Below, one piece after another: positions 15,440-34,969 of a stretch of DNA of 64,000 nt. The notes under the pieces were generated by a model. That model ran no database searches. It had not been told where the DNA came from and worked only from the letters and a program-made list of their open reading frames with translations. Where the stretch lies: contig CM082591.2 in NCBI GenBank assembly GCA_040954595.2, positions 11,053,309 to 11,117,308 of the forward strand, read 5' to 3'. Position 1 is the first letter of the stretch; each line of letters begins with the position of its first letter. This DNA comes from Balanoglossus misakiensis. Taxonomy: Eukaryota > Animalia > Hemichordata. The translations under genes and the position numbers were made by a program.

Positions 15440-18400
15440 CACATAAACCTTCTGTCACGAACTATGTTTCTCTGTGAAATGTTTTTAAATGAAAACATTG
15501 AGATCCAATACAGCAAATGAAATTGAAAGCTTACAGGTATTGGATGAAATCAATAAGTGAAACATTAGATTCTTGGTTGTACCAATGATTGCTATGTCTA
15601 ATGAATAAATGCAGAAGTAAAGTTATATACATGTCTGGTAAAACAATATTTAAAATAGAAGTGTATTATTTTTTATTGATTGCACAGGGGAAGGAACTGA
15701 AGATGATGTCCGCCAGCTGAGATCCTGCTGAGATGCCTGTGCTTCAATGATGCCATGGATGAGAATGCAAGCCCTCCACAGATGCCTGGATGGCATTTCA
15801 GAAAGTAAGATTCACCTTCTAAAGGTACAAAATGCATTATATTGTGGAACACTATTTCAAAACATGGCTATGTTTCTGTGCAAAATGTATTCAAATAAAG
15901 ACATTGAGATCCAATACAGCCAATGAAATAGAAAGCATACAGAGTTTTGCTGCAATCTATGAGTGAAGCATTCGATTCTTGGTTGTGCCAATCATTCCTT
16001 TGTCTAAGGAATATAATGCAGAAGTAAACGTATTTATACATCTCATAAATCAGTAATTATTATAGAAATGTACTGGTATTAGTTTTCATTGATTGCACAG
16101 GTCAGAGAACTGAAGATGATGTCCACCAGCTAAGATCCTGCTGAGATGCCTGTACCTAAATGATGCCATGGATGAGAATGCAAGTCCACTACAGATGTCT
16201 GGATGTCATTTCAGAAAGTAAGATGCACGTTTAGGTCGAGAATGCATTATATTGTTGAAAACTATTTCCAAACATGGCTATGTTTCTGTACAGGTTACAG
16301 GTATTGGATGCTGTCTATTAGTGTAAAGCATTCAATTCTTGATTGTACCAATTATGATGGCCATGTCCAATGAATGCATTCAGAAGTAAAGTTATTTAAA
16401 TGTGTCGTAACACAATATTTAAAATAGAAATATATCAGTTTTCATTGATTGCAGAGGACAAGGAACTGAAGATGGGATCCACCAGCTGGGATCCTGCAGA
16501 GATGCCTGTGCCTCAATGATACCTGGATGCCATTTCAGAAAGTAAGATGCACCTTCTGAAGGTACAAAATGCTTTACATTGTGGAAAATTATTGTGAAAC
16601 AGGGCTGTGTTTCTGTACGAAATGTGCTCAAATGAAAACATGGAGATCTAATACAGGCAATGAAATGGAAAGCTTACAGGTTTTGGATGCAATCTGTGAG
16701 TGAAGCTTTTGATTCTTGGTTGTACCAATGATTGCAATGTCTAAGGAATATAATGCATAATAAACTTATATATATAGATACCGGTATATATCACGTAAAA
16801 CAGTAATTAATATAGAAATGTATTAGTTTTCATTGATTGCAGAGGACAAGGAATTGAAGATGATGTCCACCAGCTGAGATCCTGCTGAGATGCTTGTGCC
16901 ATGGATGAGAATGCAAGCCCATAACAGGTGCCTGGATGCCATTTCAGAAAGTAAGATGCACCTTCTAAAGGTAGAGAATGCATTATATTGTGGAAAACTA
17001 TTTCAAAACATGGCTTTGTTTCTGTACGAAATGAGTGGAAATAAAAACATTGAGATAAAATACTGTCAATGAAATGGAAAGATTACAGGTATTAGATGCA
17101 ATCAAAAAGTGAAACACTCTATTCCTGGTTTTGCCAATTATAATCATTGCTATGCCTGAGGAATATAATGCAGAAGTAAACTTATTTACATGTCTCGTAA
17201 AACAATAATTAAAATGGTATTGTATCAGTTTTCATTGATTGCACAGGTCAGAGAACTGAAGATGATGTCGACCAGCTAAGATCCTGCTTAGATGCCTGTA
17301 CCTCAATGATGCCAATGGATGAGAATGCAAGCCCTCCAAAGATGCCTGGATGCCATTTCGGAAAGTAAGATTCACCTTCTCAAGGTATAACATGCATTAT
17401 ATTGTGGAAAACTATTGTGGAACATGGCTATGTTTTTGTTTGAAATGTAAGCAAATAAAGACATGGAGATCCAATATAGCCAATGAAATGGAAAGCTTAC
17501 AGGTAATGTATGCAATCCATGAGTGAATCATTTGATTCGAGGTTTTACCAATTATTGCTATGTCTAATAAATAAATGCAGAAGTAAACTTATTTTCATAT
17601 CTCGTAACACAATTTTTAAAATAGAAATGTATCAGTTTACATTGATTGCACAGGTCAGAGAACTGAAGATGATGTTCAACTGCTGAGATCCTGCTGAGAT
17701 GCCTGTGCTTCAATGATGCCATGGATGAGAATGCAAGCCCTCCACAGATGTCTGGATGCCATTTCAGAAAGTAAGATGCACCTTCTAAAGGTAGAGAATG
17801 TATTACATTTTATAAACATGGCTATTTTTCTGTAGAAAATGCGTTGAAATAGAGACATTGAGATCCAATACAGGCACTGAAATAGAAAGCTTGGAGCATT
17901 CCATTCTTGGTTGTACCAATTACAATTGCCATGTCTAATGAATAAATGCAGTTGTACCAATTACAATTGCCATGTCTAATGAATAAATGCAGTTGTACCA
18001 ATTGCAATTGCCACGTCTAATGAATAAATGCAGTTGTACCAATTACAATTGCCACGTCTAATGAATAAATGCAGAAGTAAAGTTATTAACATGTCTCGTA
18101 ACAAATCATTTAAAATAGAAATGTATTATTTTTTATTGATTGAAGAGGACAAGGAACTGAAGATGATGTCCACCAACTGCGATCCTGCAGAGATGCCTGT
18201 ACCTCAATGATACCATGGATGAGAATGCAAGTCCACTACAGATGTCTGGATGCCATTTCAGAAAGTAAGATGCACCTACTAAAGGTATACATTACATTGT
18301 GGAAAACTATTTCAAAACAGGGCTATATTTCTGTACATAATGTGTGGAAATAAAGACATTGAAATCCAATACAGCCAATGAAATTTAAGCATACAGGGAT

Positions 18401-19130
18401 TGGATGCAATCTATGAGTGGAGCATTCAGTTCTTTTTTGTACCAATTATGATTGCCATGTCTAATGAATAAACGCAGAAGTAAAGTTATTTATATGTCTG
18501 GTAACACAATATTTAAAATGGAAATTAAAATTAATTTTTATTTATTTCACTGGACAAGGAACTTGAGATGATGTCCACCAGCTGAGATCCTGCAAAGATG
18601 CCTGTGCCTGAATGATGCCATGGATGAGAATGCAAGCCCATAACAGGTGCCTGGATGCCATTTCAGAAAGTAAGATTCACATTCTCAAGGTACAAAATGC
18701 ATTATATTGTGGAAAACTATTGTGGAACATGGCTATGTTTCTGTATGAAATGTAAGCAAATAAAGACATGGAGATCCAATATAGCCAATGAAATGGAAAG
18801 CTTACAGGTATTAATCCTATCCATGAGTGAATCATTTGATTCGAGGTTTTACCAATTATTGTTATTTATAATAAATAAATGCAGAAGTAAACTTATTTTC
18901 ATATCTTGTAACACAATATTTAAAATAGAAATGTATCAGTTTACATTGATTGCACAGGTCAAGGAACTGAAGATGATGTCCTACTGCTGAGATCCTGCTG
19001 AGATGCCTCTATGCTTCAATGATGCCATGGATGAGAATGCCCTCCAAAGATGCCTGGATGCCATTTCGGAAAGTAAGATTCACCTTCTCAAGGTACAAAA
19101 TGCTTTACATTGTGGAAAATTATTTTTTGC
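15440..19130 (+). repeat. Diverged ~400-bp tandem repeat, about 9 copies
   Basis: Anchor aactgaagatgatgtc recurs near 15695, 16109, 16464, 16853, 17254, 17661, 18155, 18559 and 18965. One copy has an internal ~41-bp amplification at 17911-18070. Confidence 0.9.
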
Positions 19131-20656
19131 TAGTTTTCCAATTCTTAATTTTCAATTACTTACAAACACACAACACTTTGATAAATATTGTTTCATATGG
19201 ACTCCCTTCTTGTTGCCCACAAAATAAATGCTTTTTTCAAAGTTGATATTCAAATGAGATAAAAAAGTCCCTGTTGAGAGTGTGTTAAAATAGATAGTTA
19301 TATCCCATTATTATGATTAAACCTCTATCATCAGTTTTCTCCAGCATATTTCAGTATGGATGATGCAATCTGGTCTATTGATAATTTGATAATTCACTAT
19401 TCGAAGAAGGCAAAGAAACTGTAAAGTACAGAACCTATCATAAGAAAATTTTCTAAAAGTAGCCCCAAATTAGCTATCTTTCCTCTGAGTCACTTTTTGC
19501 CCAAGTCCTTGAGTGGTGTTTTTACCATAATAAATGTGAGAGTTTTGACAATAAGGTAAGTTTAAGGATGAGATCAATTCAGCTGGAACACTGAGAGCTA
19601 AAGAGGAGCAACTCACAGAAGCCATCAATTTCTTTATTGGGATGGAGCAGACATGGACACATTTTTGTTTCTGCTGTGTGAAAGTTAACGACTCTTTGTT
19701 GCTGTGACAAATCAATACAAGGTAAGAGTAATGTCCTCTTTCTGTTTATAGGGGAGGAGAGGATACATGCGTGAATTCAAAGACCAGTGCATCAGATGCA
19801 GGGGGAAATTCCTCAGACAAGATGATTTTATATTCGTGGACTTAAACCAACATTGTTTTATTTCATCATCATTTCAAGAAAAGAACTTCTCCCATGTCTT
19901 AGAATAGAGCATTGATAAATCCCTAAGTTATATGATCTGTATTCAAAATGTAATATTGTGATTTTTCTGTATGTAATTGTGTCAGACAGAGAGGAGAGGG
20001 AGAACAGGTTCAAATTAAATTGCAATGTGTATATTTTGGCATGGCAACACTTCTTCAAATTTGATAGCAAAAAAGGAAATTTACTAACAACAATAGTCCT
20101 AAATTATCACTGTGATTTGTTTAGCCTAGCCTGAAGGCTGTTGGATCCTATAGACAAAATAACCATTGCGCATAACTAAGCTGCACGTAAACTAACACGA
20201 AATGCACTGGATACAGCAGCCTTCAGGTCATTACCACTTAGCTTTTCAGCGCGTAAATAAACCCACTAATATAGCAGTTAATATAACTGAGCTAAATGGT
20301 ATACAAAAAGAGAATACAGCATAATTCCTGTATTGGTACAGATCTTCAACCAGTTACGTGAGGAAAGCAAACATGCCCAATAAAGAGCAAACCACCATTG
20401 CATATTATTAATGTTTGACTTTGATAAACTGTATTTGGCATATGCTTGACTTGCCTAAACCACCATTGTATATTGTTTGACTTGGCTCTCCCTCTCTTTA
20501 TACATAGACTAGATTTCTATTGTTACATTATTGTAATTGATTTAGGCATAATTTACTAGTATTGTGCATTTTGAAAGTACAATGTAGAAGTATTATAGGT
20601 TTATGATGGCCATGTTTTCGTGATTTATATTGAAGTATGAACTATATCATACACAG

Positions 20657-21222
20657 TATGGGGTGAGAACACCGCCAAAAATAGCTGATGTCTTTATTTG
20701 GTAGTTTTCTCATCATTATTATGCTATTATGTCATTATTTGGCCATTACCTTGGCCATTATTATGCCGTTATTTGGTTCTTTGGCCGTTATTATGTCATT
20801 TTTCAGTACTGATGTCTTTATTTGGAAGTTTTCTCATCATCATTATGCTATTATGTCATTATTTGGCCATTATTTGGTTCTTTGGTATTTATGTCGTGGT
20901 CTCGACATTACCTCGACCATTACCTCGGCCATTATTTGGTTCGCTCGACATTACCTCGGTCATTATTATGCCGTTATTTGGTTCTTTGGCCGTTATTATG
21001 TCATTTTTCAGTACTGATGTCTTTATTTGGAAGTTTTCTCATCATCATTATGCTATTATGTCATTATTTGGCCATTATTTGGTTCTTTGGTATTTATGTC
21101 GTGGTCTCGACATTACCTCGACCATTACCTCGGCCATTATTTGGTTCGCTCGACATTATCTGACCTACTTTATTATTTGAACTCTTGCCCGGTACCCAGA
21201 ATTCATTGCACAAAATGGCGAC
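20657..21222 (+). repeat. Left terminal inverted repeat (566 bp) with an internal 205-bp duplication and short iterons
   Basis: Reverse complement of 34366-34931, with identical 160/113/109-aa mirror ORFs. Internal period is 205 bp (20822 vs 21027). Built from ccattatttgg, cattacctcg and ttattatg motifs. Confidence 0.96.
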
Positions 21223-21229
21223 GGTATGA
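21211..21229 (+). promoter_or_regulatory. CAAAATGGCG (YY1/Kozak-like) motif and 4-codon uORF MATV* at the inner end of the left TIR
   Basis: caaaATGGCGACGGTATGA has its ATG at 21215, 93 nt upstream of the ligase ATG at 21308. Confidence 0.55.
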
Positions 21230-21307
21230 AAGTTTCGCAGGCCGTGGCCGACGACAGTCTTGGAAACAGCACGCGTGGTGGGTAAACAGTGAAGGCTGAA
21301 ATGAACT

Positions 21308-24300
21308 ATGGCAGACAATAGACTCGTAGAAGCGGTTAGGGCCTGTCGGGATGCGATAAATAGTGCGGCCACACTCCTTGAGAATGTTAATACGCATCGT
21401 GATAGCGCCCATAATGTGGCAACTGTTGACAACAACAGCAGTGTTGGTCAAGCTGAGCTAAACATCGATCGACCACCAAGAAGCAGAAGCAGTGATATTG
21501 TTCGTGAATTCCACGACAATTTTGCCAGAAATGCCGTAACCGGAGCGGGACGTCGGCGGAGCCATCGTCCGAGATTTAGATCTCGCAGCGAGCAGCGAGT
21601 AGATAGTAGTAGTAATAATAGAGGCAGATCCACAGTATCACCAACTTGGACTCGTGTATGGGTGTGCGTGGAGAGTACCAAGTGTGAGTGGTGTCCAACT
21701 CCGAAGCAGCGGTCCGATTTGTCCAAAGTTGGACTAGGTGAGCGGAGAATTTCGATACCTATTGGTAGTACAGCTACCGAGGTTCATGACTTGCTCCTTG
21801 ACGAATATCCAAAATTGAGCGAAGGTGGTGGCTATGAGATATGTCGTGCATACTTAGGAAGCAGACGATTAGTTGTAATACCTTGTCCACCCGAGGGGTA
21901 CACACAAATGTGTTTAAACACTGAGGCTGGGCAAGCTAAGCTGTATATACGCCCTTTACAAAACGACCTCGAAGGAACACCAGTAATGCCAATTACTACA
22001 CCATCAGATATGGCCAGTACAATTTCGGTGAGTATTTTGTGTTTCTTTTCATGGCTATACTAATATGCTATGCATGCCATAAACCTGCAGCAGTTGCTGG
22101 GACTCCAATAAGGTTTCTTTGATGTCATTTTTACAACTTAATGTAAAAGTTTGCTTGTAAATTTTGAGACCACCTATTATTGCAGATACCAGTGTTGTAA
22201 CACATGTTTATACATGTTGTTACATAGTTACATCTGGTAATCAACACCGTGATAAGATCTCACTAATTACACAGAGGCAACTGACAGGCAGGCATGTGTC
22301 TGGAGTTTGTTGTAGTGTTTATTACTAGTAGTTTTGTCTTTGAGAACATACAGCTAGTAGGCAATATTTGAAACAAGTTCAGAACATTTAGGAACAAATT
22401 ACCTAACCTAAACTACAAACCTAACAATATCTGGAACAATCTCATCGTCAAATATTAGGTTGTTTTCACTGTAAAGTTTTTTCATTTTGCAAAAGTTATA
22501 ATGTAAACAATTTCTCTGCTATTTTAAATGTTGAAATGGTTTTGTTTGAAATGCACTTAATTATATTTTATAGGCTATAAATAATGCTCCCAGGGAAATG
22601 TGCAGTAAGTGTAATGTACAGATTCCATTTTCCCAGCTAAGGGACCATATTGATGCATGCAGAGGACTTGAGGTGGTAGAACTAGAAGATGATGAGGATA
22701 GTGACAGGTAGGCATATTTAATATACACATTTTAAAAGAGAAAGGATGGTGTAAATTATGAAGAGTCCATCGATATATGTATATTGAAAGACATTTACAA
22801 GTGTCTTTTCAATTAATTTGTAATTTGCATATGTTTTTTTGCAATTAGAGTTATATATCAAATCAGTCTCAAATTTGACGACACCTACTACAGATGTTGA
22901 TCATACAAAGCTATGATGGCGCTGTAGGACGTCTGGCAGTGTCTATTCATGTGGTTGTACCAAATTTAAGGAAACTTACTTGTCCAAGCGAAGCAAAGGA
23001 ATCTGGCGTCTTTACACCATGGATAGGGGTCAACCCCTGTTTGGACACAATTTGTACTCAGAACCTACCAATCATGGGTCGAGCAAAACATCCGCTACAA
23101 ATTATAAATTTTACAATAAAATGTTGAAGGTTATTGTAGATTACTAGTAATAGTTTGATAAATTACAATCATTGACATTTCAGAGATCTGATTCCAGTTC
23201 AAATAAGCAGTCCTGAAAGAACTACACACAGAGCAAGGCAATCAAGTACCAGAGCAAGGCAATCAAGTACACTGAGAGGGTTAGTTTTCCACCTTTATTT
23301 TTGGTAAAGCTTGTTCGATTGAAAATGTAATATCAGTGGAATAAAATCAGGAAATAAGTTTTAATAACAGTTGCTTTTAGCAATTATGGAATTGGGCAAA
23401 ATCCATATGCATGTAATGTGTGCATGTGTATTACTTTTTACAAATAACTGATCTGTTATGAATCAGCTGAATAAGTTACTATGTAGTCACCTATTGAATT
23501 ATCAATGTGCAGAGGACATTTTGTAGCTAATCTTGTTACATGAATTCAGCTCCAAGAAAGCTTACGGTTTTTGTTAAATCTTGCAGGATTTTCACTTTAT
23601 TTTACTGCAGTCACTCATTTAGAAGAGGTAGATAATACTTTCTTTACAATTGAGAAGTGACAGAAATAACAGACCATCAGTTTGTGACTGTTTCTCAACT
23701 ACATGTACTCAACATGCAGACAGCCAGAGAATTTCTTAGTTCTCACTTGTTTGATATTGTGGAATCCTGGATGAATTTCCTTGAGGCACGATACTCTGTC
23801 CTGTAAAAACTTGCTAACTTCGCCTTCCATTACTGGTGGAGACTTCTTTGCCCATAGGGAAAATAACACCAGGTTGTACATCAATAATGACAGTGTTTCA
23901 TCCAGGTCGGCATCACCAGGGGGGGATTGCCCCCCTTTGCCAGAATATTTGAGGGGATTCTACTCCGGTAAGGGGGGACTTCAACAAATTCTTTTGAAAA
24001 AGAATATACTGTTGTCTATCTCCAAGGTGTGACTGACATCATTTCATGATAGGTTGGCTGCCCCTTGGCAAATTGCTAGGGGGTGCCAACAGAGGGGGAA
24101 TTGCCCCATTGCCCTGTCTAGCTGAAACACTTTTTTGAGCACCTTGTGGCATAGACTGTTGTGTCTGTGTGTGTGTGTGTGTGTCCGCGTGTACATCCAT
24201 CTGAAAGAGGGTAAAACCAAAGTTTTTAACTACATGATTTTAACCACATTTCTTGGTTTTAACTCTAAAATCTAGCGTAAGTTCTCTTTTAAAATTTGGA

Positions 24301-27300
24301 CCAGGTGTCCATTTAAGTCTTACTTTGATTTATTCTAGAAATCATTCTGGTCAAAACCAAGACTTGACTTCTGCAAGACATTGCAATATGAACACTAGAA
24401 GTGCTAATTCACTGATGATAGCTCTTGACAGGTCAGTATTTCTAAATCAGTACTGTAGTCAGTGTAGATTATTTGCAAAGATAGACAATACAATAACTGT
24501 ATTCTGTCTTTTTCTATTCTCTCTTTATCTCCATTGTAGACTTTGTCATACCAGAGCTATTCATATTACTGATTATACATTGGTGTCAACATTATATGTT
24601 CGACTTCTTGCAGGCAAGGTATATTGGGTGGTTCTCTATCGAGGGTAACTGATCCATACAGTATGAGAGCGATAACTTATAGCGCAGCTCCAATAGAAAT
24701 ACTCTATACAGAGACTGGGATTTATTGTATCCTGGATCATTAGATAAGTTATTTTAACCAAAGACACACCTGCCATTTATGTAAGTGTATGTAAATTATG
24801 CAAATATAGTTACCATAATGGTAAGTGAGTGACATTCCATTGTCCTACCTTTGATAATGTAACTTTTACGTTACTTCCAATATGATAGGAGTTATTCACA
24901 GATATTGGATAGTACTGGTAGTGTTGATAGTCAAGAAGAAAATGAAGAAGAAACCATAGAAGCTAACAATGCTCCACTGTACCCAAGGTATGACATTTGC
25001 ACGTGTGTACTCGCTTCCTCTGTGATGCTTTGTCATTCTTTTTTTTTTCACATAATAAGTCCATTTACTTTACTTCATTCAAATACTGATTAATATTGTT
25101 GGCTTTTAAGTAGTTGTGAGATTTAGCCATTTTACCACATTCAAAACTATGTGAACTTACCAGATTCAAAGTTTTTGTTTTGTTTTAATTGTCATGTTCA
25201 GCTTATTTGCTGGCAGGTCGAGAAAGTACACAAGGTCTGTCAAAATCTTGTTAAACACATAAAACAACAACCCAGACCTCCTATCACAGCGGTGAAAATT
25301 CTATAAGCACTTCAAATTCTTGATATATTAATCTAATACTTGCAAATAAAAAGGACATAAGCTGAATTTGTTGCAAAGTTTTTCATACTTTTTAGTCTCC
25401 ATCAGATGAAACTGTGACATACAGATTAGGTTTTGTGTGCGTACATGCTTTGACTGCAGAACGTTTTCTTAGACGTGGCTGTACAGAATTTGGCTCATGG
25501 ACAGTGTAACATGTCATTCATATGTGTGGCATTTTACTTGCAATCTGATCCAAGATGGTTGACTAGTCACCAGTTTAATTTTGTAATGTCCAGAGCAATT
25601 CAATTTTTTTGGGAGATATGATCCAATATTGCTTCCACTCAGGCATTTTGCTCGTGTTTTTGTATGTGCAGAGCAAATATCCAGACATGCTCCTATGCTG
25701 ATTGTTTCAAATATGGTACAAAGGTATTGCATTATTTTGTATATGATTTTTGTGTGCAATGAGATCAAATATAGGAAACAGTCAGCCAGTTTGTGTGATT
25801 GTTTGTTTTTATTTTTGTTCGTTCAAAGGACAAAGCACCATGACTGAATATTACAATGACACCAGAGGGTCAGTCTTTACAAATCTCAACAATTGAAAAA
25901 CAGAAAATGGAAAAAATTGCAACTCATTGCACTCTAAATTATAAAAAATTGGATAAACCATTGCAGATTGAATCACTATAATCTTGTTGTCTTTTTGATT
26001 GTCATATAGATGTAGTCTGGAGTATGCTGTCCAAGTACTAAATCACCAGGTGGAACAAATGCATTTGGATTACAACAAAGGAATTGGTAGTGATTATGAT
26101 GATGATGATTATCAACGCATTAACATTTTAAGGTCGAATTTTTGGCAAACAGCTGTAAGGGCCATAAATCGATCTGATTTCCACCCAAACAAGCCGATGA
26201 AAGTGTCATTTATTGGTGAAAGTGCGGTTGATGATGGGGGACCAAGAAGGGAATTTTGCAGTTTATTGATTAATGCTGTAAAAACATCTGGTGTTCTTGA
26301 AGGCAAGGAAAACAACCTAAGCTTTTCCCATGATTTGCACTATCTGGCTGAAAGAAGGTATTTCACCGCAGGCAAGATGGTTGCTATATCTCTTTGCCAT
26401 GGTGGTCCAGGACTACACTGCCTGAGCCAAGCAACATTCCAATACATGGCAAAAGGCTGTGTTGCAGAAATGAAAGACGTTGATGAAATTCCTGGTTATG
26501 AGATACAGCTGATAGCGAAGCAGGTGAGATTTTTGGCTCGCATATGCCATATGCATATATGGCAATAGGCTTGAATAAATGCCTGTCTGCATGTATGTAT
26601 GTATGTATGTAAAATGTGTGTGTGTGTGTGTGTGTGTGTGTATTTCAACTGTCCAAAAATTGTGAAAACTAAAAAAAACCCTCTGAAAATGCTGACCAGA
26701 TTGCCTTTGTATATAGTTTCTATGTACCTTAGACAAAATCTATGAAGATTTGTTCATATTGTGTCGACATCTGTATTTTTTTATTTATTTGAATATTTTT
26801 CTGACTTCTGGGCAAAAATGATACTTAAACTATTAGTATTACTGTGCAATCCTGCTTGCCATTTTGTTAAGAGTTAGCATGAAGGCAAAGACCTATGAAT
26901 TTACATATGCGCATGCCTTTCCTTGGTGATTGTTGTCAGAGTGACTGGATTTTGGGTCATTTTGGTCAAAAATTGTATTTTAAGTATTACTGAGATATGG
27001 TATAGGCAGTTTTGTTGGAGACACCTTTCAGTGACATACATGTGTAATACCTTTGCATTTGCAATATTCATTCTCAAAGGAAAAGGATTTTTTTTGGTAT
27101 TTGTTTACGTTGATACTGCCTCCACTGCATAGGTATTGAGATATTCTTCAACATGGTTGACAATTTTGTTTATTAAGGTAAACTCTGTGTAAATAAAGTA
27201 CTTTAATTATAACCCTGTATCCTATTTATACAGATCCAGTCCAGTAACACAAATGAGGACCTCAGAATTGCTGTATCTCGTATTGGCGAAGAAAGTGTTG

Positions 27301-28952
27301 CCAATATAACAGGCTGTACGGATCCCATCGATACAATCACATTAGACATGAAAGATGCAATTCTTCAAAATCTAATAGCACATCACTGCGTATATAAAGC
27401 AATATCCGGGATAAACCAATTCTCAGATGGGATGAACATCTTGAATGTAAAGGAATTGATAAAGGCAGAACCTGGTATGTATACAGTCACTGATTAAATT
27501 GCACAGTTAATTTTCAAGATGTGGTGCCTAATTGCAAAAAATTGTCAATATGCAAATAAGCAATTAACTTGCATGCCACTGCCAACTGTCTCACAGCATT
27601 GTTAAATCTTAGAAATAGTATGATTATAATTTCTGCAAATTTTGCGAAATTTGTTCCAGTTATTGAAATATAGCTAGGTTATTCTCTTCAGGGTGCGGCA
27701 CAATCTCCACACAGAGACTAACCTAGCTAGGGAGTTTGACTAATAGCCACTATTCTCTGCCAGAGGCAAATTTAAATATTCCAGACCGGATCTTCTTTCA
27801 GTTCTGCGCGTGCTCAGTTGGTTCAATAAATATGGAAGCCATCTTGAATTGTTAATTTACATTTATGTAACCCAGAGCAGGATCTATGTTTTGCAAGTGT
27901 TCACAGAATCGAGGATCGACTTTGAAACTGGTGCATTTTTTAGTTCTTATATTTTTTGGTTCAAAATATTAAACATAAAAAAACAGGAAATGTATATTAT
28001 AGAAAACGCGCAACACCCAAAAAGTGGGTGTGAATTGTCGTCTGTGGCAGAGATTGGTGGGGGGTAGTGGTCGGACTCCCTAGCTAGGTTAGAATTATCC
28101 ACCCCAAGTGTTTGCGTGGAGATTGGGTGAGGCATTGGATTCACTTCACATGCAACACTTTCCAGATGAACCGTTTGATGAAAACAATACATGTAAACTT
28201 TGAATCTATCTAGGTAATATGGTGGTTCCAATGGAGGGATCTCTCTGTTAGGGGCTATCTATAATAAGACCAAGTTTTTAAAAATTAATCTGAACAGATA
28301 CACAGAGGTATATTTACGCAATCTTTTTTTATTCTTTTAATTAGGGTCTATGGAGCACTTCATGTGTTTCAGTAAGAAGTTGTATCCATCAGCTGATTAC
28401 TTTAAAGCTATGCATGTGGAATATAGTCCAAGTGGGTCGAATAACAGAACACAAGAAGAAACTACTATGTACTATTGGTTTGAATTCATCGATGAATGTG
28501 CTAAAGGTCAGTAACCACGTATTAAGTGCCAAAAAGATTAAAAATACAAAATGCAGTAAATTATTTCCCCTTTAAATAACTTTCTGCAGAAAAGGGTCTT
28601 ATGGGTTGAATGCCCACTTTATATATAACTCATGTGCATTCTCCAATTTTCATTTATTTTATGTCTTACAGGGAATCAGAAAGCAAGTCTGTATGCTGGG
28701 AGTGAAAATGAATCTACTGAAGTTGTCATAACACTTGCTGACATTCTGTCATTCTTCACAGGCGCACATTCAATACCCCCTTTAGGTTTCAAAGAAAGGC
28801 TGTCCATAGAATTTATCACAAATTCCACTGTTCCCACTTCCAATACATGTGCCAATACTCTGCGATTGCCAAGATATTTCAGCTGCATAGATGAATTCTC
28901 AGAGAGACTAACTTTTGCTCTAGCAAATAGTCGTGATTTTGGTAATGTCTAG
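21308..28952 (+). CDS. Transposon-borne HECT-domain E3 ubiquitin ligase (G2E3-like HECT) with UBZ4 zinc finger and SIM; about 748 aa, 8 exons
   Basis: Proposed exons: 21308-22027, 22574-22707, 23184-23279, 24889-24987, 26010-26523, 27234-27474, 28345-28506, 28672-28952. All introns are GT-AG and phase-compatible; total 2247 nt with no internal stop. HECT motifs: VSFIGESAVDDGGPRREF, YFTAGKMVAISLCHGGPG, NQFSDGM, ILSFFTGAHSIPPLGF, PTSNTCANTLRLP (catalytic Cys 28848-28850) and terminal DFGNV* with the -4 Phe. Small middle exons 3-4 are less certain. Confidence 0.85.
23891..24132. mobile_element. Degenerate hAT-like MITE in a ligase intron
   Basis: cagtgtttca at 23891 and tagctgaaacact at 24119-24131, with internal gggggattgcccc motifs. 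No clear TSD. Confidence 0.35.
26010..26523 (+). CDS. HECT domain N-lobe exon
   Basis: INILRSNFWQTAVRAI...KVSFIGESAVDDGGPRREFCSLL; acceptor atatag, donor gtgaga. Confidence 0.9.
27700..28125. mobile_element. Degenerate inverted-repeat element (MITE-like) in a ligase intron
   Basis: caatctccac...taacctagctagggagt near 27700-27737 is mirrored by actccctagctaggtta...gtggagattg near 28075-28125. Confidence 0.4.
28672..28952 (+). CDS. HECT domain C-lobe, final exon with catalytic Cys
   Basis: ITLADILSFFTGAHSIPPLGF...PTSNTCANTLRLP...DFGNV*; acceptor ttacag. Confidence 0.9.
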
Positions 28953-29689
28953 TAGATACAGAGTGCCAGTTGAATAGAAAGGACAGAAATGATCTAGCAA
29001 GCAATGAACTCACATTTAGGTGTGATCTATGGAATGTTATATCACAGTTGAATATTCTGAACTTAATTGCAAAGTTATATTGCAGAGGTGTTCCTCTATA
29101 TTGTCAATTGAGCATACAGTGTATTCTATTGATATACTGGGATACACTATACACGTTTAGCTCTGCTGTCAACAACGCAGAGCTTATCAGATAGGTGGAT
29201 TGTCCGTCTGTCAACAATTGACTTCTTCTCAGAAACCACAGTTCATACAGGCCGCTTGTTTAGAAGACTGTTACAAGATATCTCTGTTTTCGTGCATTAG
29301 CAAAAGACATTTTGTATTTTACATTGTATCTGTACTGTAATTCACTTGTTAGTACCACCAGAAATAGTCTGGAACAAGGATTATATATTTGGTTCCATGC
29401 TTTGGTTGAGATCCTTAGAATATCTTTATCCTTAGAATATCTCAAAAAATCAGCAACTAGCTTCTTTCCTTGAAATTATTCATTTACATGTGTGTTCCTC
29501 TGTCCACAGATGCGCATGTATGTATGCAAAGGGTATTCTGCCGCAAGAATATTGTCAAGAAACTTTGCACTTGCAATCTGGTATTGTACTATGTTTGTCT
29601 TAAGTACCGTCCAAGTCTATAGTAGCTAAGCAACATTATTGCTATTTTTAGAGTTGTGTTATGGACAATGTACCATGACATGTCATACA

Positions 29690-29860
29690 CCAATCTGATT
29701 AAAATTTGATGTAGAGATGGGGCGATCTTTCGCGCTCCGTATATATGGTCTTTTCTTCCGGGGTCCATTCCTCAGTATGGTCGGACCCCGGAAGAAAAGA
29801 CCATATATACGGAGCGTGAAAGATCACCCCATCTCTTCATCGGAGTTTAATCAGATTGGC
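29690..29860. mobile_element. ~170-bp palindromic MITE/hairpin between the convergent genes
   Basis: ~77-bp arms (ccaatctgattaaa...cttccggggtcc / ggaccccggaag...tttaatcagattgg) around a 16-nt loop, flanked by the direct repeat cataca(c). Confidence 0.75.
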
Positions 29861-30099
29861 CATACACATGCACTGTGTTTCGAGTAATCCAATCCAAGGC
29901 AGTTGATTTCTCCCAAGATTTTTTTTTGGGGGGGTGGGGAGGGGGTTATAAGTCCAATGGGCCTGGCCAGTGGCTTTCAAACACATAGTTGTGTTGTGCT
30001 TTAGTTATAAAGTTTTTAGTTACCAAGTAGTTAGACTCTTTTTAGGGGCTTCATGGTTCAGTGGCTAGATGGTGAGTGGGAGACCAAGCATGGCCATGA

Positions 30100-30170
30100 T
30101 GATGTGTCCTTGAACAAGGCACTTAACTTCTCATTGCTTCTTCCCCTACCCAGGAGTAATGGGTACCTCA
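30100..30170 (+). mobile_element. CORE-SINE-like fragment
   Basis: gtgtccttgaacaaggcacttaacttctc...cccagg...taatgggtacc resembles the CORE/MIR-type SINE central domain. Confidence 0.45.
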
Positions 30171-31160
30171 TCCTGTTATTGCAAATTGAATTTGCCTGTT
30201 GAATGATTGTTGAATAAAAAAATAAACAAAACATGTTCTTTTGTTAGTTACTTCATCTTGTCTTTATTCAAAGGGAACAGAGGTATGACTGGTTTTGTTG
30301 TAACTGTCTCTGTTGTGCTCAGTCAGAAAAAGCCTTCTTTGGGAACCATACACCACAAACTCCTCTAAAGTAGCATTAAAAAAATTGATAACCTTTATAG
30401 GGCTTCAATTTTATTGAAATCATAGGAATGGTGCTCTTTGACCTATACATAAACTTGAATAATGGAGTGAGGTGCTTTTATTTCTCTGTCCGTTGCCAAG
30501 TCTTAACCAATGTATATTGTACAAGCAATCTACGGTACATCAAAACATTCTACATATACAAGTTTTGTGACATTTTCAATAATGGTTTACAAAATATGTG
30601 ATATCAATACAGTGCCTGTAGCAAGTTTTTGAGATAAACAATATTTTCCAATCTTCATATGAAAAATAGTGACAATGACACTGTGCTCCCGTTTTCAAGA
30701 AATAGTGCATACCGTATAAAATTTTAAAGCTTTCAGTATCACTCAGACAAATAGTATCTGAGAAGATAATATTTTACCCCAAATTTAAGAAATCTCAAAA
30801 TTACAATAGAAAATTAAAATAGAAAATTCCAAATATCAGCACAAAATAAACAGATCTATATTAGCTCTTAATTGACATCTTTTTTTTCGTGGAGGGGGGA
30901 GGGAGCTCATATGCATATATACAACATAATTCAAACAAATTTCAATCAACAGTCCAGATGCATCCCTATCAATTGTTTTGTTTTTGTAGACAGACATACA
31001 CACATATAATATACATAACATGGATTCATGCATACATACATACATGTACATATGACAGACGTGTTACCCCAAAAGCTCTGCTTTGCCATAAACATATGGC
31101 AAATGGAAGACAATAAATCTTGAGGTTTACAATCTGCATAAAGACCAAAACAAGTCTTCT

Positions 31161-34100
31161 TTATTCCCTGTTTTCCAACACTCTCTTGACAAAGTTAATC
31201 ACATCTTGATACACTGATATGCCGTACATATCACCATCTCTTAATGGGTCAATGGAACCGATGAGATCGTCAAATTCATCAACTTCTAAAGGACAACAAA
31301 CTATGGGAATCTCGACTCTGGCATCTGTTGTATCTTCTGGAAGAGGTCCATCCCAGTCAATCCCATAATGCATGATTTCGTCCTTTAAAAAATATAAAAG
31401 ATTCAGTTTAAAGCACAAAAATCAAATCTGTTTCTTATTATCGTCCACTATCTGTGATTTCCATAAAAGAACACTAAGCATCATCACTATATCTCCTATT
31501 TTCCATCTTTTGACATATTATCTTTAAAGAGCAAGGGTCAGCCAGTTAAAAAGAAACAGTCGCAAAGTTTGGTTTGAGATACCATCTGCCAATTACAAAT
31601 TTTGTATGTCGCACTTATTTTCAATTCTTTTCAGTTAGGAAATGTCCCTCTGAAGATATTTTGATGTGTGAATTGTGAGAAACAAATGCTCAGCATGAGG
31701 ACTTTTGAAAGTGCATGGAACCTGCACCTGTACATACCTCAGTTCTTGGTTCAAATAGTTCTCTCATTGGTCTGTAATTTGAGCCTGCCATTTCCATAGA
31801 ACCTTGAATCCAAAGCTGTCTTGGCGATCTGCTATTTGCAGTGCTAAGTTTGTGTTGATTCCAACCTTCTTGCCAGTGCTGAAGATCTCGATTTATTCTT
31901 GGTAAATATGTAAAGTGCAGACAGAACATATCTATGTCACTTTCTATATCAAGCAGCAATTTATCTTCGAGGTAGTAAAACAGGTTGTAGTATTTAAATA
32001 AAATACCACAAAATACATCACGCCATAAACGTTCTATCCTCTGGTTGTGTACACTCTTGCCAGATATGAAACTTCCCCTTCCCGGTCCTCTAGCTGGATG
32101 ATTGAGCATAAATAGTGAAACAGATACATTTTCACCACCTTTGTCAGCTCTCACCCGAGATGGGACTCCGAATCTTTGAGTGGCATCTTCAAAACTTTCA
32201 AGAACTGTGTCAGATCTGTTGTTGTCACTGCATACAAGATAGACCACCATTCTTGAGAAACCATCCACTCCACCATGTACTACTAACTTCCATCTATGGA
32301 CAACAAATTGACAGAAATGGCTTGTCAAGTGATGTTGATACAGGTCTGAAAATGAAACCTTTACTGATAAAAATAGCATTATTGACACCACAACTCCATT
32401 TTGGTATATTGCATCCATCCATGCATCACATGCAATATCAAATTGAATGGTTACTGTACATAACTCAATCAAACATTTAATCTTCTTAGCCCCTTCTATA
32501 ATCCATGGCTATCAAATGGTCTGTCCCTTATGATGGATGTCAGACAAACTTTGGTCATTGTTGAGCTGTTAGTGAAATATGATCCTGCCTATTTAGATTG
32601 TCAGTTCATACAACTTGCTGCAATATCACAAAATACTTCGCCAGTGAATTAAATCGGGGTGTAGTGACATAAATGCAAGCTTTCTTAAAGGGACAAAGTC
32701 TCTCTCTCGCTGCCCCCTTTCCATTAATTATGTTTGATACCAGACACAGTTTATGTTAATGTACATGTGGATATATAGTGAATCAATGATCAACCACACA
32801 AAACTTCCATCCCACTTGTATGATATGAGAGTAAAACTTGCCCAAAATAAATAAATGGTAAAGAACGATTATTCATTTTGGCGAGTTTTTTCACTCTCCT
32901 GTCTATAAGGAGGATGGAAGTTGTGTGTGGTTGAACGTTCATTCACTATATATCCACATGTAGAATAACAAACGGTGTTTTGTATCAAATATAATTAATG
33001 GAAAAAAAAGGGCAGCGAGAGAGAGACTTTGTCCCTTTAATTTCTAAAAACATTTCATCTTATACTGTCAGGACATTGTCCTCCCATTTAATCAGAATTG
33101 GTACACTCAAGTGTGAAATACATCAATTTTATTTGGACTCAATTACCAAAACAAACCCAACAAGATACCTTTAGCATTAAATTTATACATTTTTTATCAG
33201 ATGATAGATAAGTCTGATGGCAAACATTGCCCGGAACCTGCAAACCGAAGTTCAAAGCAACTGGACAAGCAATTTCTGAAAAAGAGACCCAAAAATTTGA
33301 CCCCAAAATCAACCGAATGAGAATAATATTTTTATCATAATCTTTTACACATCACAATAAGAACAGAGCATCCTACAAACCATTTTTTAAGATAGGACAG
33401 GCAATTTCTGAGAAATGGACTTTTTAATAACATCGCAAAAATTGCCCTAAAATACAATATAAATATTTTCAACATAATTATGCTAATATCATCAAGTATT
33501 TTACCCGAAAAATGTTTTGTGAATTGTTATGTGATTGCTGAATTAGCTGGGATAGAGCACCAACATTATCCTATAAATATATTTCAGCCAGCCGTTTTTT
33601 AGAACACATTTGTCCATACGCATGGAGACCTTCGGTTTGAGTATTTCACAGGCTTGACCAATAAGTACACTAACCTACCTTATCAGTTTATGGTTTCCAT
33701 CTATGTGCCACAATGCATTAGGGCACGGAACATTGTACTGCCGCCTACGTATTGCAGTTCTTCTCCTACTGACAACTCCACTGTGATCTACACGTCGAAG
33801 GCTTTCTCTGACTCGAAAAATTGCCACACGTTTACCTTCGGCAAGTAACAGTCCATGTAGCCTTTTCATTCCCGTGTTTGGAAGACGATTGGTTATGTCA
33901 GTAACCATTCCATCAAGCTCTTCATCAGACAACTCCGCATATGATTCCGCAATTGAAATGCCATACTCGTACATACGTCTTTGTATGGTTCGTATCGAAA
34001 CGCCAAGCATTTTTGCCACTGCTGGTACGCTAAATCTTTCTGCTACAAAGAACTGCAACTGTTCTTTCGGGATATCGAAGCGAGGTCTACCACGCTCCCC

Positions 34101-34373
34101 GGAACTCACTTTGTATGAACGATACGGCCAACAGACGCTTGGACCAATGTTCTGTGACTGATTATCAAGAAAATCTATCAAAGTTGTCATAGCAAGACTG
34201 AGTTGTGCAAACACGTTGTCTGGGACATCAGTATGGATGCATAATTGGACCAGTTCTTCTTCTTGTAAAACGATGTCGTCAAACACAGCTTCCAACTCAC
34301 TTGGTCTAGTTACTGACCCAAGTGCGGAAGCAATATCGTACAACCGTCTTGTTATTACTTGTACAGTCGCCAT
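31161..34373 (-). CDS. IS3EU-type DDE transposase/integrase-core protein, about 490 aa, 3 exons
   Basis: Exons 34373-33679, 32293-31738 and 31382-31161 total 1473 nt, with GT-AG introns and an in-frame join HKLIR|WKLVVHGG. N-terminal GRPR plus HTH ([16 protein letters not shown]) and a second helical domain (LSDEELD...GMKRLHGLL). Catalytic core [46 protein letters not shown] gives DD36E. Confidence 0.92.
32689..33036. mobile_element. 348-bp Kolobok-like MITE with TTAA TSD in transposase intron 1
   Basis: TTAA|agggacaaagtctctctctcgctgccc...gggcagcgagagagagactttgtccct|TTAA, imperfectly palindromic over most of its length. A related end occurs at 9155-9174. Confidence 0.8.
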
Positions 34374-34931
34374 TTTGTGCAATGAATTCTGGGTACCGGG
34401 CAAGAGTTCAAATAATAAAGTAGGTCAGATAATGTCGAGCGAACCAAATAATGGCCGAGGTAATGGTCGAGGTAATGTCGAGACCACGACATAAATACCA
34501 AAGAACCAAATAATGGCCAAATAATGACATAATAGCATAATGATGATGAGAAAACTTCCAAATAAAGACATCAGTACTGAAAAATGACATAATAACGGCC
34601 AAAGAACCAAATAACGGCATAATAATGACCGAGGTAATGTCGAGCGAACCAAATAATGGCCGAGGTAATGGTCGAGGTAATGTCGAGACCACGACATAAA
34701 TACCAAAGAACCAAATAATGGCCAAATAATGACATAATAGCATAATGATGATGAGAAAACTTCCAAATAAAGACATCAGTACTGAAAAATGACATAATAA
34801 CGGCCAAAGAACCAAATAACGGCATAATAATGGCCAAGGTAATGGCCAAATAATGACATAATAGCATAATAATGATGAGAAAACTACCAAATAAAGACAT
34901 CAGCTATTTTTGGCGGTGTTCTCACCCCATA
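34366..34931 (-). repeat. Right terminal inverted repeat (566 bp), containing the transposase start codon
   Basis: Mirror of 20657-21222 (coordinates sum to 55588). ATG at 34373-34371 on the - strand. Confidence 0.96.
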
Positions 34932-34969
34932 ACACAGTTGGAGATATTGTCATATGTGATTACTGATTA

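What the first reader, a model, noticed from the sequence alone, without database searches (positions are those of the whole stretch)
22574..22707. Hidden exon with a Rad18-type UBZ4 finger and SUMO-interacting motif: a possible transposon-encoded SUMO/ubiquitin-targeted ligase
Seen: a 134-bp exon absent from the ORF track encodes CSKCNVQIPFSQLRDHIDAC (22601-22660, C-x2-C-x11-H-x3-C), followed directly by LEVVELEDDEDSD. Known: the finger spacing and H-x-D-x-C end match ubiquitin-binding UBZ4 fingers of Rad18, WRNIP1 and FAN1, and V-V-x-L plus an acidic tail is a canonical SIM. Characterised STUbLs (RNF4, Slx5/8) are RING-type, and SUMO is central to animal TE silencing and break repair. Inference: a HECT-type ligase that reads Ub/SUMO marks at silenced chromatin or DNA breaks.
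Basis: partly seen in the sequence, partly recalled or inferred. Interest (0 to 1): 0.85.

Follow-up and report, generated by a model that had tools for sequence, protein, structure and literature searches.

The report
Transposon ligase with swappable reader motifs
This small exon is a real part of a ubiquitin-tagging enzyme gene carried by an intact jumping gene; its zinc finger is kept across animals but is likely not the ubiquitin-gripping type proposed, and the SUMO-binding motif beside it is a predicted, optional extra that its closest relatives lack.

Summary
The exon is real. 22574-22707 is exon 2 of a 9-exon, 779-aa HECT ligase gene inside an intact 14.3-kb IS3EU transposon (570-bp TIRs, 6-bp TSD, open DDE transposase). 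A Ptychodera protein matches the model end to end at 70%. No RNA was available.

The finger follows a predicted ubiquitin-like domain in relatives from sponge to fish, but it is not a good UBZ4. The Ub-contacting Asp occurs in 0 of 30 relatives, and the Pro-Val loop is Ser-Lys here. The family instead keeps the three positions that pack RNF125's C2HC finger against its RING.

The SIM fits a published pattern but is absent from the two closest relatives. Across the family, SIM patterns are enriched behind the finger (4 of 25 vs 0.5 shuffled), and 7 of 15 linkers carry UIM-like motifs or extra CPxC fingers.

Best reading: a transposon ligase with a fixed UBL-finger head and an interchangeable Ub/SUMO-reader linker. 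SUMO targeting by this copy is possible (about 0.25) and untested. Nothing points to chromatin or DNA breaks.

The parts
20651..20656 (.). Left target-site duplication ACACAG
   Evidence: identical 6-mer at 34932-34937
20657..21226 (+). Left TIR, 570 bp, starts TATGG; holds a 205-bp tandem duplication; likely promoter/5'UTR of the HECT gene
   Evidence: 569 of 570 identical to right TIR; promoter role inferred
21308..22027 (+). HECT gene exon 1: disordered basic N-terminus and the ubiquitin-like domain
21641..21970 (+). Predicted beta-grasp (ubiquitin-like) domain, aa 112-221; no Pfam hit
   Evidence: AF2 mean pLDDT 83.5; Foldseek SAP18 E 7.5e-4; VIA-align TBK1 ULD Z 7.2, rmsd 2.6, 80 aligned, tied with other beta-grasp folds; Pfam blank
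22574..22707 (+). HECT gene exon 2 (the finding), phase 0 to 2
22601..22660 (+). C2HC zinc finger, aa 250-269, predicted beta-beta-alpha fold; profile closest to RNF125/TRAFD1/XAF1-type, RAD18 tied
   Evidence: (fold from the Ptychodera homologue)
22673..22705 (+). SIMa-pattern motif (VVEL core 22673-22684, aa 274-277) with acidic tail, in a region predicted disordered in the homologue; core not kept in closest relatives
23184..23279 (+). Exon 3, low-complexity linker
24339..24431 (+). Exon 4, linker
24889..24987 (+). Exon 5, acidic linker
26010..26523 (+). Exon 6, HECT N-lobe
27234..27474 (+). Exon 7, HECT
28345..28506 (+). Exon 8, HECT
28672..28952 (+). Exon 9, HECT C-lobe; catalytic-position Cys746 (28848-28850) intact; stop codon
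   Evidence: Pfam HECT E 1.2e-12, above cut-off
31161..34373 (-). IS3EU transposase, 3 exons (34373-33679, 32293-31738, 31382-31161), 490 aa, no stop, D225/D282/E319
   Evidence: Pfam rva_4 E 5.4e-73
34362..34931 (-). Right TIR, ends CCATA; contains the transposase start codon
34932..34937 (.). Right target-site duplication ACACAG

Best explanation
The exon encodes the zinc finger and acidic tail of a HECT ubiquitin ligase gene inside an intact IS3EU transposon; the finger likely works with the predicted ubiquitin-like domain in front of it as a fixed partner-binding head, not as a Rad18-type ubiquitin receptor, and the SIM-like motif is likely an optional add-on. Mechanism, step by step: (1) shown in sequence: two convergent open genes between near-identical TIRs; (2) inferred: each TIR drives one gene, so ligase and transposase are co-expressed; (3) inferred: the UBL-finger head binds the substrate, and the HECT (Cys746 intact) ubiquitinates it; (4) inferred: the disordered linker is a slot in which lineages gain and lose SIM, UIM, CPxC-finger or CUE motifs that add avidity for already modified substrate; (5) my guess for the substrate, about 0.35: the element's own transposase or post-integration complex, tagged for removal so the host can repair the gaps and transposase dose stays low.
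For: The 9-exon model is open and 70% identical end to end (551 of 787 columns) to Ptychodera flava XP_070577480.1. 23 of 29 UBL-domain proteins with at least 70 residues behind the domain carry the finger, 16-43 residues after it, mostly 20-22. In 30 fingers from 154 non-redundant hits: position 10 is hydrophobic in 26, position 13 is L/I/M in 30, position 14 is K/R in 19. These positions are L109, M112 and R113 of RNF125, its RING-packing face (PMC4944129 passages; sequence). The window has F, L, R there. Pfam zf_C2HC_14 scores E 1.1e-4 against 0.089 for zf_UBZ, both below cut-off. Asp at H+2 is in 0 of 30 and Pro after the first Cys in 0 of 26. Separate Ub-reader-like modules sit behind the finger in 7 of 15 finger-to-HECT linkers, and a CUE-like stretch in L012 (E 0.034). 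These tags are scattered on a HECT tree.
Against: Packing of finger on UBL is not shown: the AF2 model of the homologue has pTM 0.60 and a linker block at pLDDT 61. The window finger itself has the Asp and is closest to RAD18 in a single-sequence PDB search (9 of 24 identical); the family profile ties TRAFD1, Sgf11, RNF125 and RAD18 (E 0.026-0.19). Glu at H+2 in 13 of 30 could be a conservative stand-in for Asp. The window protein has no UIM-like, CPxC or other reader match, so if Ub reading is needed, this finger is the only candidate. No evidence here identifies the substrate; the transposase has no forward SUMO consensus site and one inverted one. No transposase was found beside the 12 metagenome relatives, which are short or decayed.
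Confidence: 0.55

Rival explanations
1. One reading: the finger binds ubiquitin and the SIM binds SUMO, so this copy is a HECT-type SUMO/ubiquitin-targeted ligase recruited to modified proteins, for example at silenced chromatin or breaks.
For: VVELEDD matches SIMa and lies in a region predicted disordered in the homologue. SIM patterns occur within 45 aa after the finger in 4 of 25 relatives vs 0.50 shuffled (p about 0.0003), within 60 aa in 5 of 24 vs 0.69, and in 8 of 26 pre-HECT regions vs about 3 under local shuffles. Cod relatives carry a SIM directly before a UIM-like motif; cichlid and sucker relatives carry a SIM before a CP[IV]C finger. Yeast Rad18 works as a STUbL through one SIM (PMC3526273 passages). 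The window finger keeps the Asp.
Against: The SIM core is I-E-D-I in the 70% relative and absent in the Saccoglossus copies; 0 of 29 relatives have a SIM within 12 aa of the finger. Shuffling the window's own 20-aa tail gives a SIM 9% of the time. It is a single SIM, whereas RNF4 uses four and RNF111 three motifs (PMC8161396 section 2). Charged residues in the beta-loop are said to disrupt the Ile44 contact (PMC4370504 passages), and the window has Lys there. Five window sizes were tried; shuffles ignore natural clustering; 4 of 26 HECT parts also match the SIM patterns. No data on localisation.
Confidence: 0.25
2. The finger binds ubiquitin by a non-UBZ4 mode (helix-based), making the ligase a chain extender; the acidic tail is a spacer or charge patch and the SIM match is chance.
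For: UBZ domains fall into at least three binding classes, and NEMO, with Lys in the loop, is put outside the Rad18 class. A hydrophobic helix face is conserved. Relatives recruit UIM-like and CUE-like motifs, suggesting selection for Ub reading.
Against: The FAAP20/Pol-eta signature (Asp at H-2, Ala at H+2) is in 0 of 26 relatives and absent here. The conserved face is equally explained by domain packing as in RNF125.
Confidence: 0.15
3. The exon is a gene-prediction artefact or the ligase is a dead passenger.
Against: The exon is needed for frame. The finger is 13 of 20 and 11 of 20 identical in two other species with all four ligands kept. An intronless relative has the finger in one open frame with UBL and HECT. 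The HECT is 303 of 380 identical to the Ptychodera protein with the Cys intact.
Confidence: 0.05

Closest known systems
IS3EU/GingerRoot DNA transposons (PMC10045372, PMC12730594, PMC6839031; passages read)
   Same: TA..TA / TAYGG..CCRTA ends, 6-bp TSD, integrase-like DDE transposase; fungal members also carry an accessory gene opposite the transposase (alpha-kinase)
   Different: The accessory gene here is a HECT ligase; 'HECT' and 'ubiquitin' have 0 hits in the main text of all three papers
G2E3 / GL-Metazoa class IV HECT ligases (PMC3673628, PMC2837046; passages read)
   Same: Divergent HECT; relatives are annotated 'G2/M phase-specific E3 ubiquitin-protein ligase-like'
   Different: Vertebrate G2E3 has RING/PHD-like fingers and a non-functional HECT; this protein has a UBL, a C2HC finger and an intact Cys, and lies in a transposon. 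Placement on their tree was not tested.
RNF125-type C2HC finger (Pfam PF18574; PMC4944129 passages)
   Same: Same ligand spacing; L109/M112/R113-equivalent face kept; best Pfam match
   Different: Below the Pfam cut-off (22.4 vs 25 bits); follows a UBL rather than a RING; packing not shown
UBZ4 of RAD18/WRNIP1 (PDB 2mre; PMC4370504 passages)
   Same: Same spacing and predicted fold; this copy has the helix Asp and an I-P-x-S stretch
   Different: Pro-Val loop is Ser-Lys; Asn before the His helix turn is Arg; the Asp is not conserved in the family
STUbLs: RNF4, RNF111, yeast Rad18 (PMC8161396 section 2; PMC3526273 passages)
   Same: A SIM-pattern motif in a disordered arm linked to an E3 domain
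   Different: HECT rather than RING; one SIM, not conserved; no binding shown

Membership tests
UBZ4 (RAD18/WRNIP1 class) | C-x2-C-x11-H-x3-C ligands, beta-beta-alpha fold | tested here: met
   sequence; fold predicted for the homologue, pLDDT about 94
UBZ4 (RAD18/WRNIP1 class) | Pro-Val (hydrophobic) beta-loop contacting Ub Ile44 | tested here: not met
   Ser-Lys here; Pro in 0 of 26; V/I/L/M at the second loop position in 5 of 30; criterion
UBZ4 (RAD18/WRNIP1 class) | Conserved helix Asp contacting Ub Arg42 | tested here: inconclusive
   present in this copy (D267) but 0 of 30 relatives; Glu 13, Lys/Arg 8
UBZ4 (RAD18/WRNIP1 class) | Binds ubiquitin | not tested
UBZ, FAAP20/Pol-eta class | Asp at H-2 and Ala at H+2 of the helix | tested here: not met
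   Arg and Asp here; 0 of 26 for each in relatives; criterion
RNF125-type C2HC finger | Pfam PF18574 gathering score | tested here: inconclusive
   22.4 bits vs cut-off 25, E 1.1e-4; 4 of 14 aligned members hit weakly
RNF125-type C2HC finger | Hydrophobic/hydrophobic/basic packing face (L109, M112, R113) | tested here: met
   F259, L262, R263; 26, 30 and 19 of 30 relatives
RNF125-type C2HC finger | Follows and stabilises a RING | tested here: not met
   preceded by a beta-grasp domain; no RING in the model
SIM | Hydrophobic core with acidic flank (SIMa pattern) | tested here: met
   VVELEDD at aa 274, the only SIMa/b/r match in the protein
SIM | Lies in an accessible disordered region | tested here: met
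   homologue tail pLDDT 53-74, no secondary structure
SIM | Conserved in close homologues | tested here: not met
   core broken in Ptychodera and Saccoglossus proteins
STUbL | RING E3 domain | tested here: not met
   HECT; definition
STUbL | SUMO-dependent ubiquitination of substrates | not testable with these tools
   needs in vitro assay
IS3EU | TA..TA (TAYGG..CCRTA) termini in TIRs | tested here: met
   features
IS3EU | 6-bp TSD | tested here: met
   ACACAG both sides
IS3EU | Integrase-like DDE transposase | tested here: met
   rva_4 E 5.4e-73; D225/D282/E319; no tree against Repbase entries was built
HECT E3 | HECT domain with catalytic Cys | tested here: met
   Pfam above cut-off on exon 9; C746; activity itself untested

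The most novel reading that the evidence does not exclude
IS3EU transposons of animals encode a family of HECT-type SUMO- and ubiquitin-targeted ligases: a fixed UBL-C2HC head plus a linker that repeatedly gains SIM, UIM, UBZ-like and CUE readers (SIM-UIM and SIM-UBZ tandems, as in host repair adaptors). They would be the first transposon-encoded and first HECT-type STUbL-like enzymes, used to strip SUMO-marked complexes from the element.
Probability: 0.3. Interest if true: 0.8.

Novelty: new variant of a known kind. Interest (0 to 1): 0.5.

Why it matters
If active, a cut-and-paste transposon brings its own ubiquitin ligase and tunes it with borrowed Ub/SUMO-reading motifs, which would show a selfish element steering host protein turnover. 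It also suggests that many 'G2E3-like' genes annotated in fish and invertebrate genomes are transposon parts, not host ligases. This copy is intact, so the claims can be tested directly. The HECT-IS3EU pairing was not found in the papers searched, but this scan has noted it 12 times already, and Repbase entries, which I could not see, may annotate it.

Tried and rejected
No genome is held and no RNA holder was listed, so splicing and copy number are unchecked.

A first 10-exon model with 24540-24618 was open but was dropped: homologues lack that segment and need an acceptor at 24889.

My first SIM counts (0 of 24 within 20 aa; 1 of 11 linkers) used an anchor pattern that dropped four finger proteins (P0034, P0054, P0123, P0139), three of them with SIMs behind the finger. 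One search supersedes them. A 'VIDLT-like' pattern was written after seeing the data and is not used. The UIM-like pattern was also post hoc and recalled; Pfam supports only one of its hits, weakly (P0139, E 0.015).

A complex prediction of finger with ubiquitin was not available (no verdict), although a ubiquitin 74 of 76 identical to the PDB sequence was located. A finger-only alignment was not made. The UBL-finger model gave no fold match with E below 0.001.

Word-index homologue searches found few relatives (1, 2 and 7). No transposase was detected beside the 12 metagenome loci, which is weak evidence given their state. The RAD18-Ub NMR paper was not held. No supplements were read. Atlas hits were unnamed clusters. 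Earlier-findings look-ups by sequence, by place and for UBZ/SIM words returned nothing.

Full report
OBSERVATION. The exon at 22574-22707 has canonical splice sites and encodes the finger (22601-22660), Arg-Gly, and the acidic tail (22667-22705). The motif is unique in the window's six frames; 1 of 200 shuffles of the element produced one. The exon is needed to keep the reading frame.

CONTEXT. The gene lies in a 14,275-bp element, 20657-34931, with 570-bp TIRs (one mismatch), TATGG..CCATA ends and an ACACAG duplication. These are the IS3EU hallmarks given in PMC10045372 and PMC12730594 (passages). The minus strand holds a 3-exon, 490-aa transposase with D225/D282/E319. The plus strand holds a 9-exon, 779-aa HECT gene with Cys746. 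The model aligns end to end with Ptychodera flava XP_070577480.1 (70%) and with Saccoglossus proteins (62-72%), which occur at 98-100% mutual identity on at least four contigs, as expected of transposon copies. Both genes are open and the TIRs nearly identical, so the insertion is likely recent. The host is an unnamed animal; the nearest relatives are hemichordate.

ARCHITECTURE. Exon 1 encodes a domain with no Pfam match that AF2 folds confidently and that matches only beta-grasp folds (Z 7.2 is middling and shows fold, not function). The full HMMER search with the Saccoglossus protein gave 2,567 hits at E 0.001; I examined the best 150 plus those. Named relatives span sponge, jellyfish, mollusc, echinoderms, hemichordates and fish. 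Of 29 UBL proteins long enough to judge, 23 have the finger; three of the six misses show a degenerate or truncated one. Of 12 metagenome loci, 6 show an intact finger, 3 a broken one, and 3 show none.

IS IT UBZ4? PMC4370504 (passages) names the contacts of this class: a Pro-Val beta-loop on Ub Ile44 and a helix Asp on Arg42, and says charged loop residues should disrupt the first. The window has Ser-Lys. Among 30 family fingers (154 non-redundant proteins; 11 near-duplicates and the later cluster members left out) the Asp occurs 0 times, Glu 13, Lys/Arg 8. That call's pattern excluded Pro by design; the open pattern found Pro in 0 of 26. What the family keeps is a hydrophobic residue at position 10 (26 of 30), Leu/Ile/Met at 13 (30 of 30) and Lys/Arg at 14 (19 of 30). 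In RNF125 these are L109, M112 and R113, which pack the finger on the neighbouring RING (PMC4944129 passages). Pfam ranks that family first, while the family profile ties several fingers including RAD18. The near-constant 20-22-residue spacing to the UBL fits a UBL-finger unit, but the AF2 model does not show packing. Seven of the 154 proteins carry CP[IVL]C fingers, which have the UBZ4-type loop; six are second fingers in fish proteins, and one has the Asp as well. So UBZ4-like fingers do exist in this family, at another position.

IS IT A SIM? It matches SIMa as quoted in PMC3395311 (passage) and is the only match in the protein. The two closest relatives, which group with the window at 100/100 on a HECT tree of 23 rows (5 left out), lack it. 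Chance from local composition is 9%. At family level there is a signal: SIM patterns within 20, 30, 45 and 60 aa of the finger in 2 of 28, 2 of 27, 4 of 25 and 5 of 24 (shuffle means 0.26, 0.38, 0.50, 0.69), and in 4 of 15 finger-to-HECT linkers vs 0.94. Local shuffles leave 8 of 26 pre-HECT regions vs about 3. These controls ignore relatedness and natural clustering, and 4 of 26 HECT parts match too. UIM-like motifs (post hoc, recalled pattern) occur in 6 of 26, SIM-UIM tandems in cod, and SIM before a CPxC finger in cichlids and a sucker. An intronless relative has a CUE-like stretch.

MECHANISM. Shown: gene structure, intact catalytic residues, conserved UBL-finger head, variable linker. 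Inferred: co-expression from twin TIR promoters (the transposase ATG lies inside the right TIR); substrate capture by the head; optional avidity from linker motifs. Guessed: the substrate is the element's own transposase or integration complex (about 0.35). One earlier AI note reports a model docking such a ligase on its transposase; I did not test it and do not count it as support. A host silencing or repair factor is the alternative target. Nothing here speaks to chromatin or breaks.

COMPARISON. It is an IS3EU element and a HECT ligase by every feature tested. It is not a member of UBZ4 or of STUbLs as defined (PMC8161396 section 2), since a defining feature fails in each. It may still work like a STUbL; yeast Rad18 does so with one SIM (PMC3526273 passages), and the HECT ligase HERC2 binds SUMO through a ZZ finger (PMC12751080 passages). 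The HECT surveys PMC2837046 and PMC3673628 (passages) describe divergent G2E3-like families without mention of transposons.

NOVELTY. Searches for HECT with IS3EU, G2E3 or transposase terms found no relevant paper; subscription journals, supplements and Repbase were not seen. The scan has 12 earlier notes on the IS3EU-HECT pair and none with UBZ/SIM terms. The new part here is the UBL-C2HC head and the swappable reader linker.

VERDICT. Observation confirmed; interpretation partly supported. Interest 0.5; new variant of a known kind.

Noticed in passing
window 21215-21229 and 34362-34373: The transposase start codon lies inside the right TIR; its mirror in the left TIR opens a 4-codon upstream ORF before the ligase ATG. 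The only TIR mismatch (21223) falls in it. Possible translational damping of the ligase.
   Followed up: partly
window 21641-21970: Widespread unnamed beta-grasp domain with a helical insertion, no Pfam family, in about 100 of the hits; candidate for a new domain family.
   Followed up: partly
L012 73-2259: Intronless 728-aa relative: UBL, finger, CUE-like stretch, HECT; a transcript contig or retrocopy.
   Followed up: partly
P0166/P0138 (cod), P0034 and P0123 (fish): SIM-UIM and SIM-CPxC-finger tandems before the HECT; better candidates for a SUMO/Ub-targeted HECT than the window copy.
   Followed up: partly
P0058, P0128, P0161, P0160: Related HECT proteins with other N-terminal parts: Neuralized, SIX1-SD plus UBX, SAM, a RING-like stretch; some may be gene-model fusions or domesticated copies.
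   Followed up: no
window 29690-29859 and 32685-33040: Palindromic inserts (87% and 82%) inside the element, between the genes and in transposase intron 1; probably nested MITE-like elements.
   Followed up: no
window 39883-63962: 24-kb satellite array, 132-bp unit, about 184 copies; other tandem arrays of 405-414 bp at 15462-19124. The element sits in repeat-rich DNA.
   Followed up: no
L013-L134 (viral contigs): At least 122 viral-contig stretches match a ubiquitin motif; some encode ubiquitin 74 of 76 identical to the PDB sequence.
   Followed up: no
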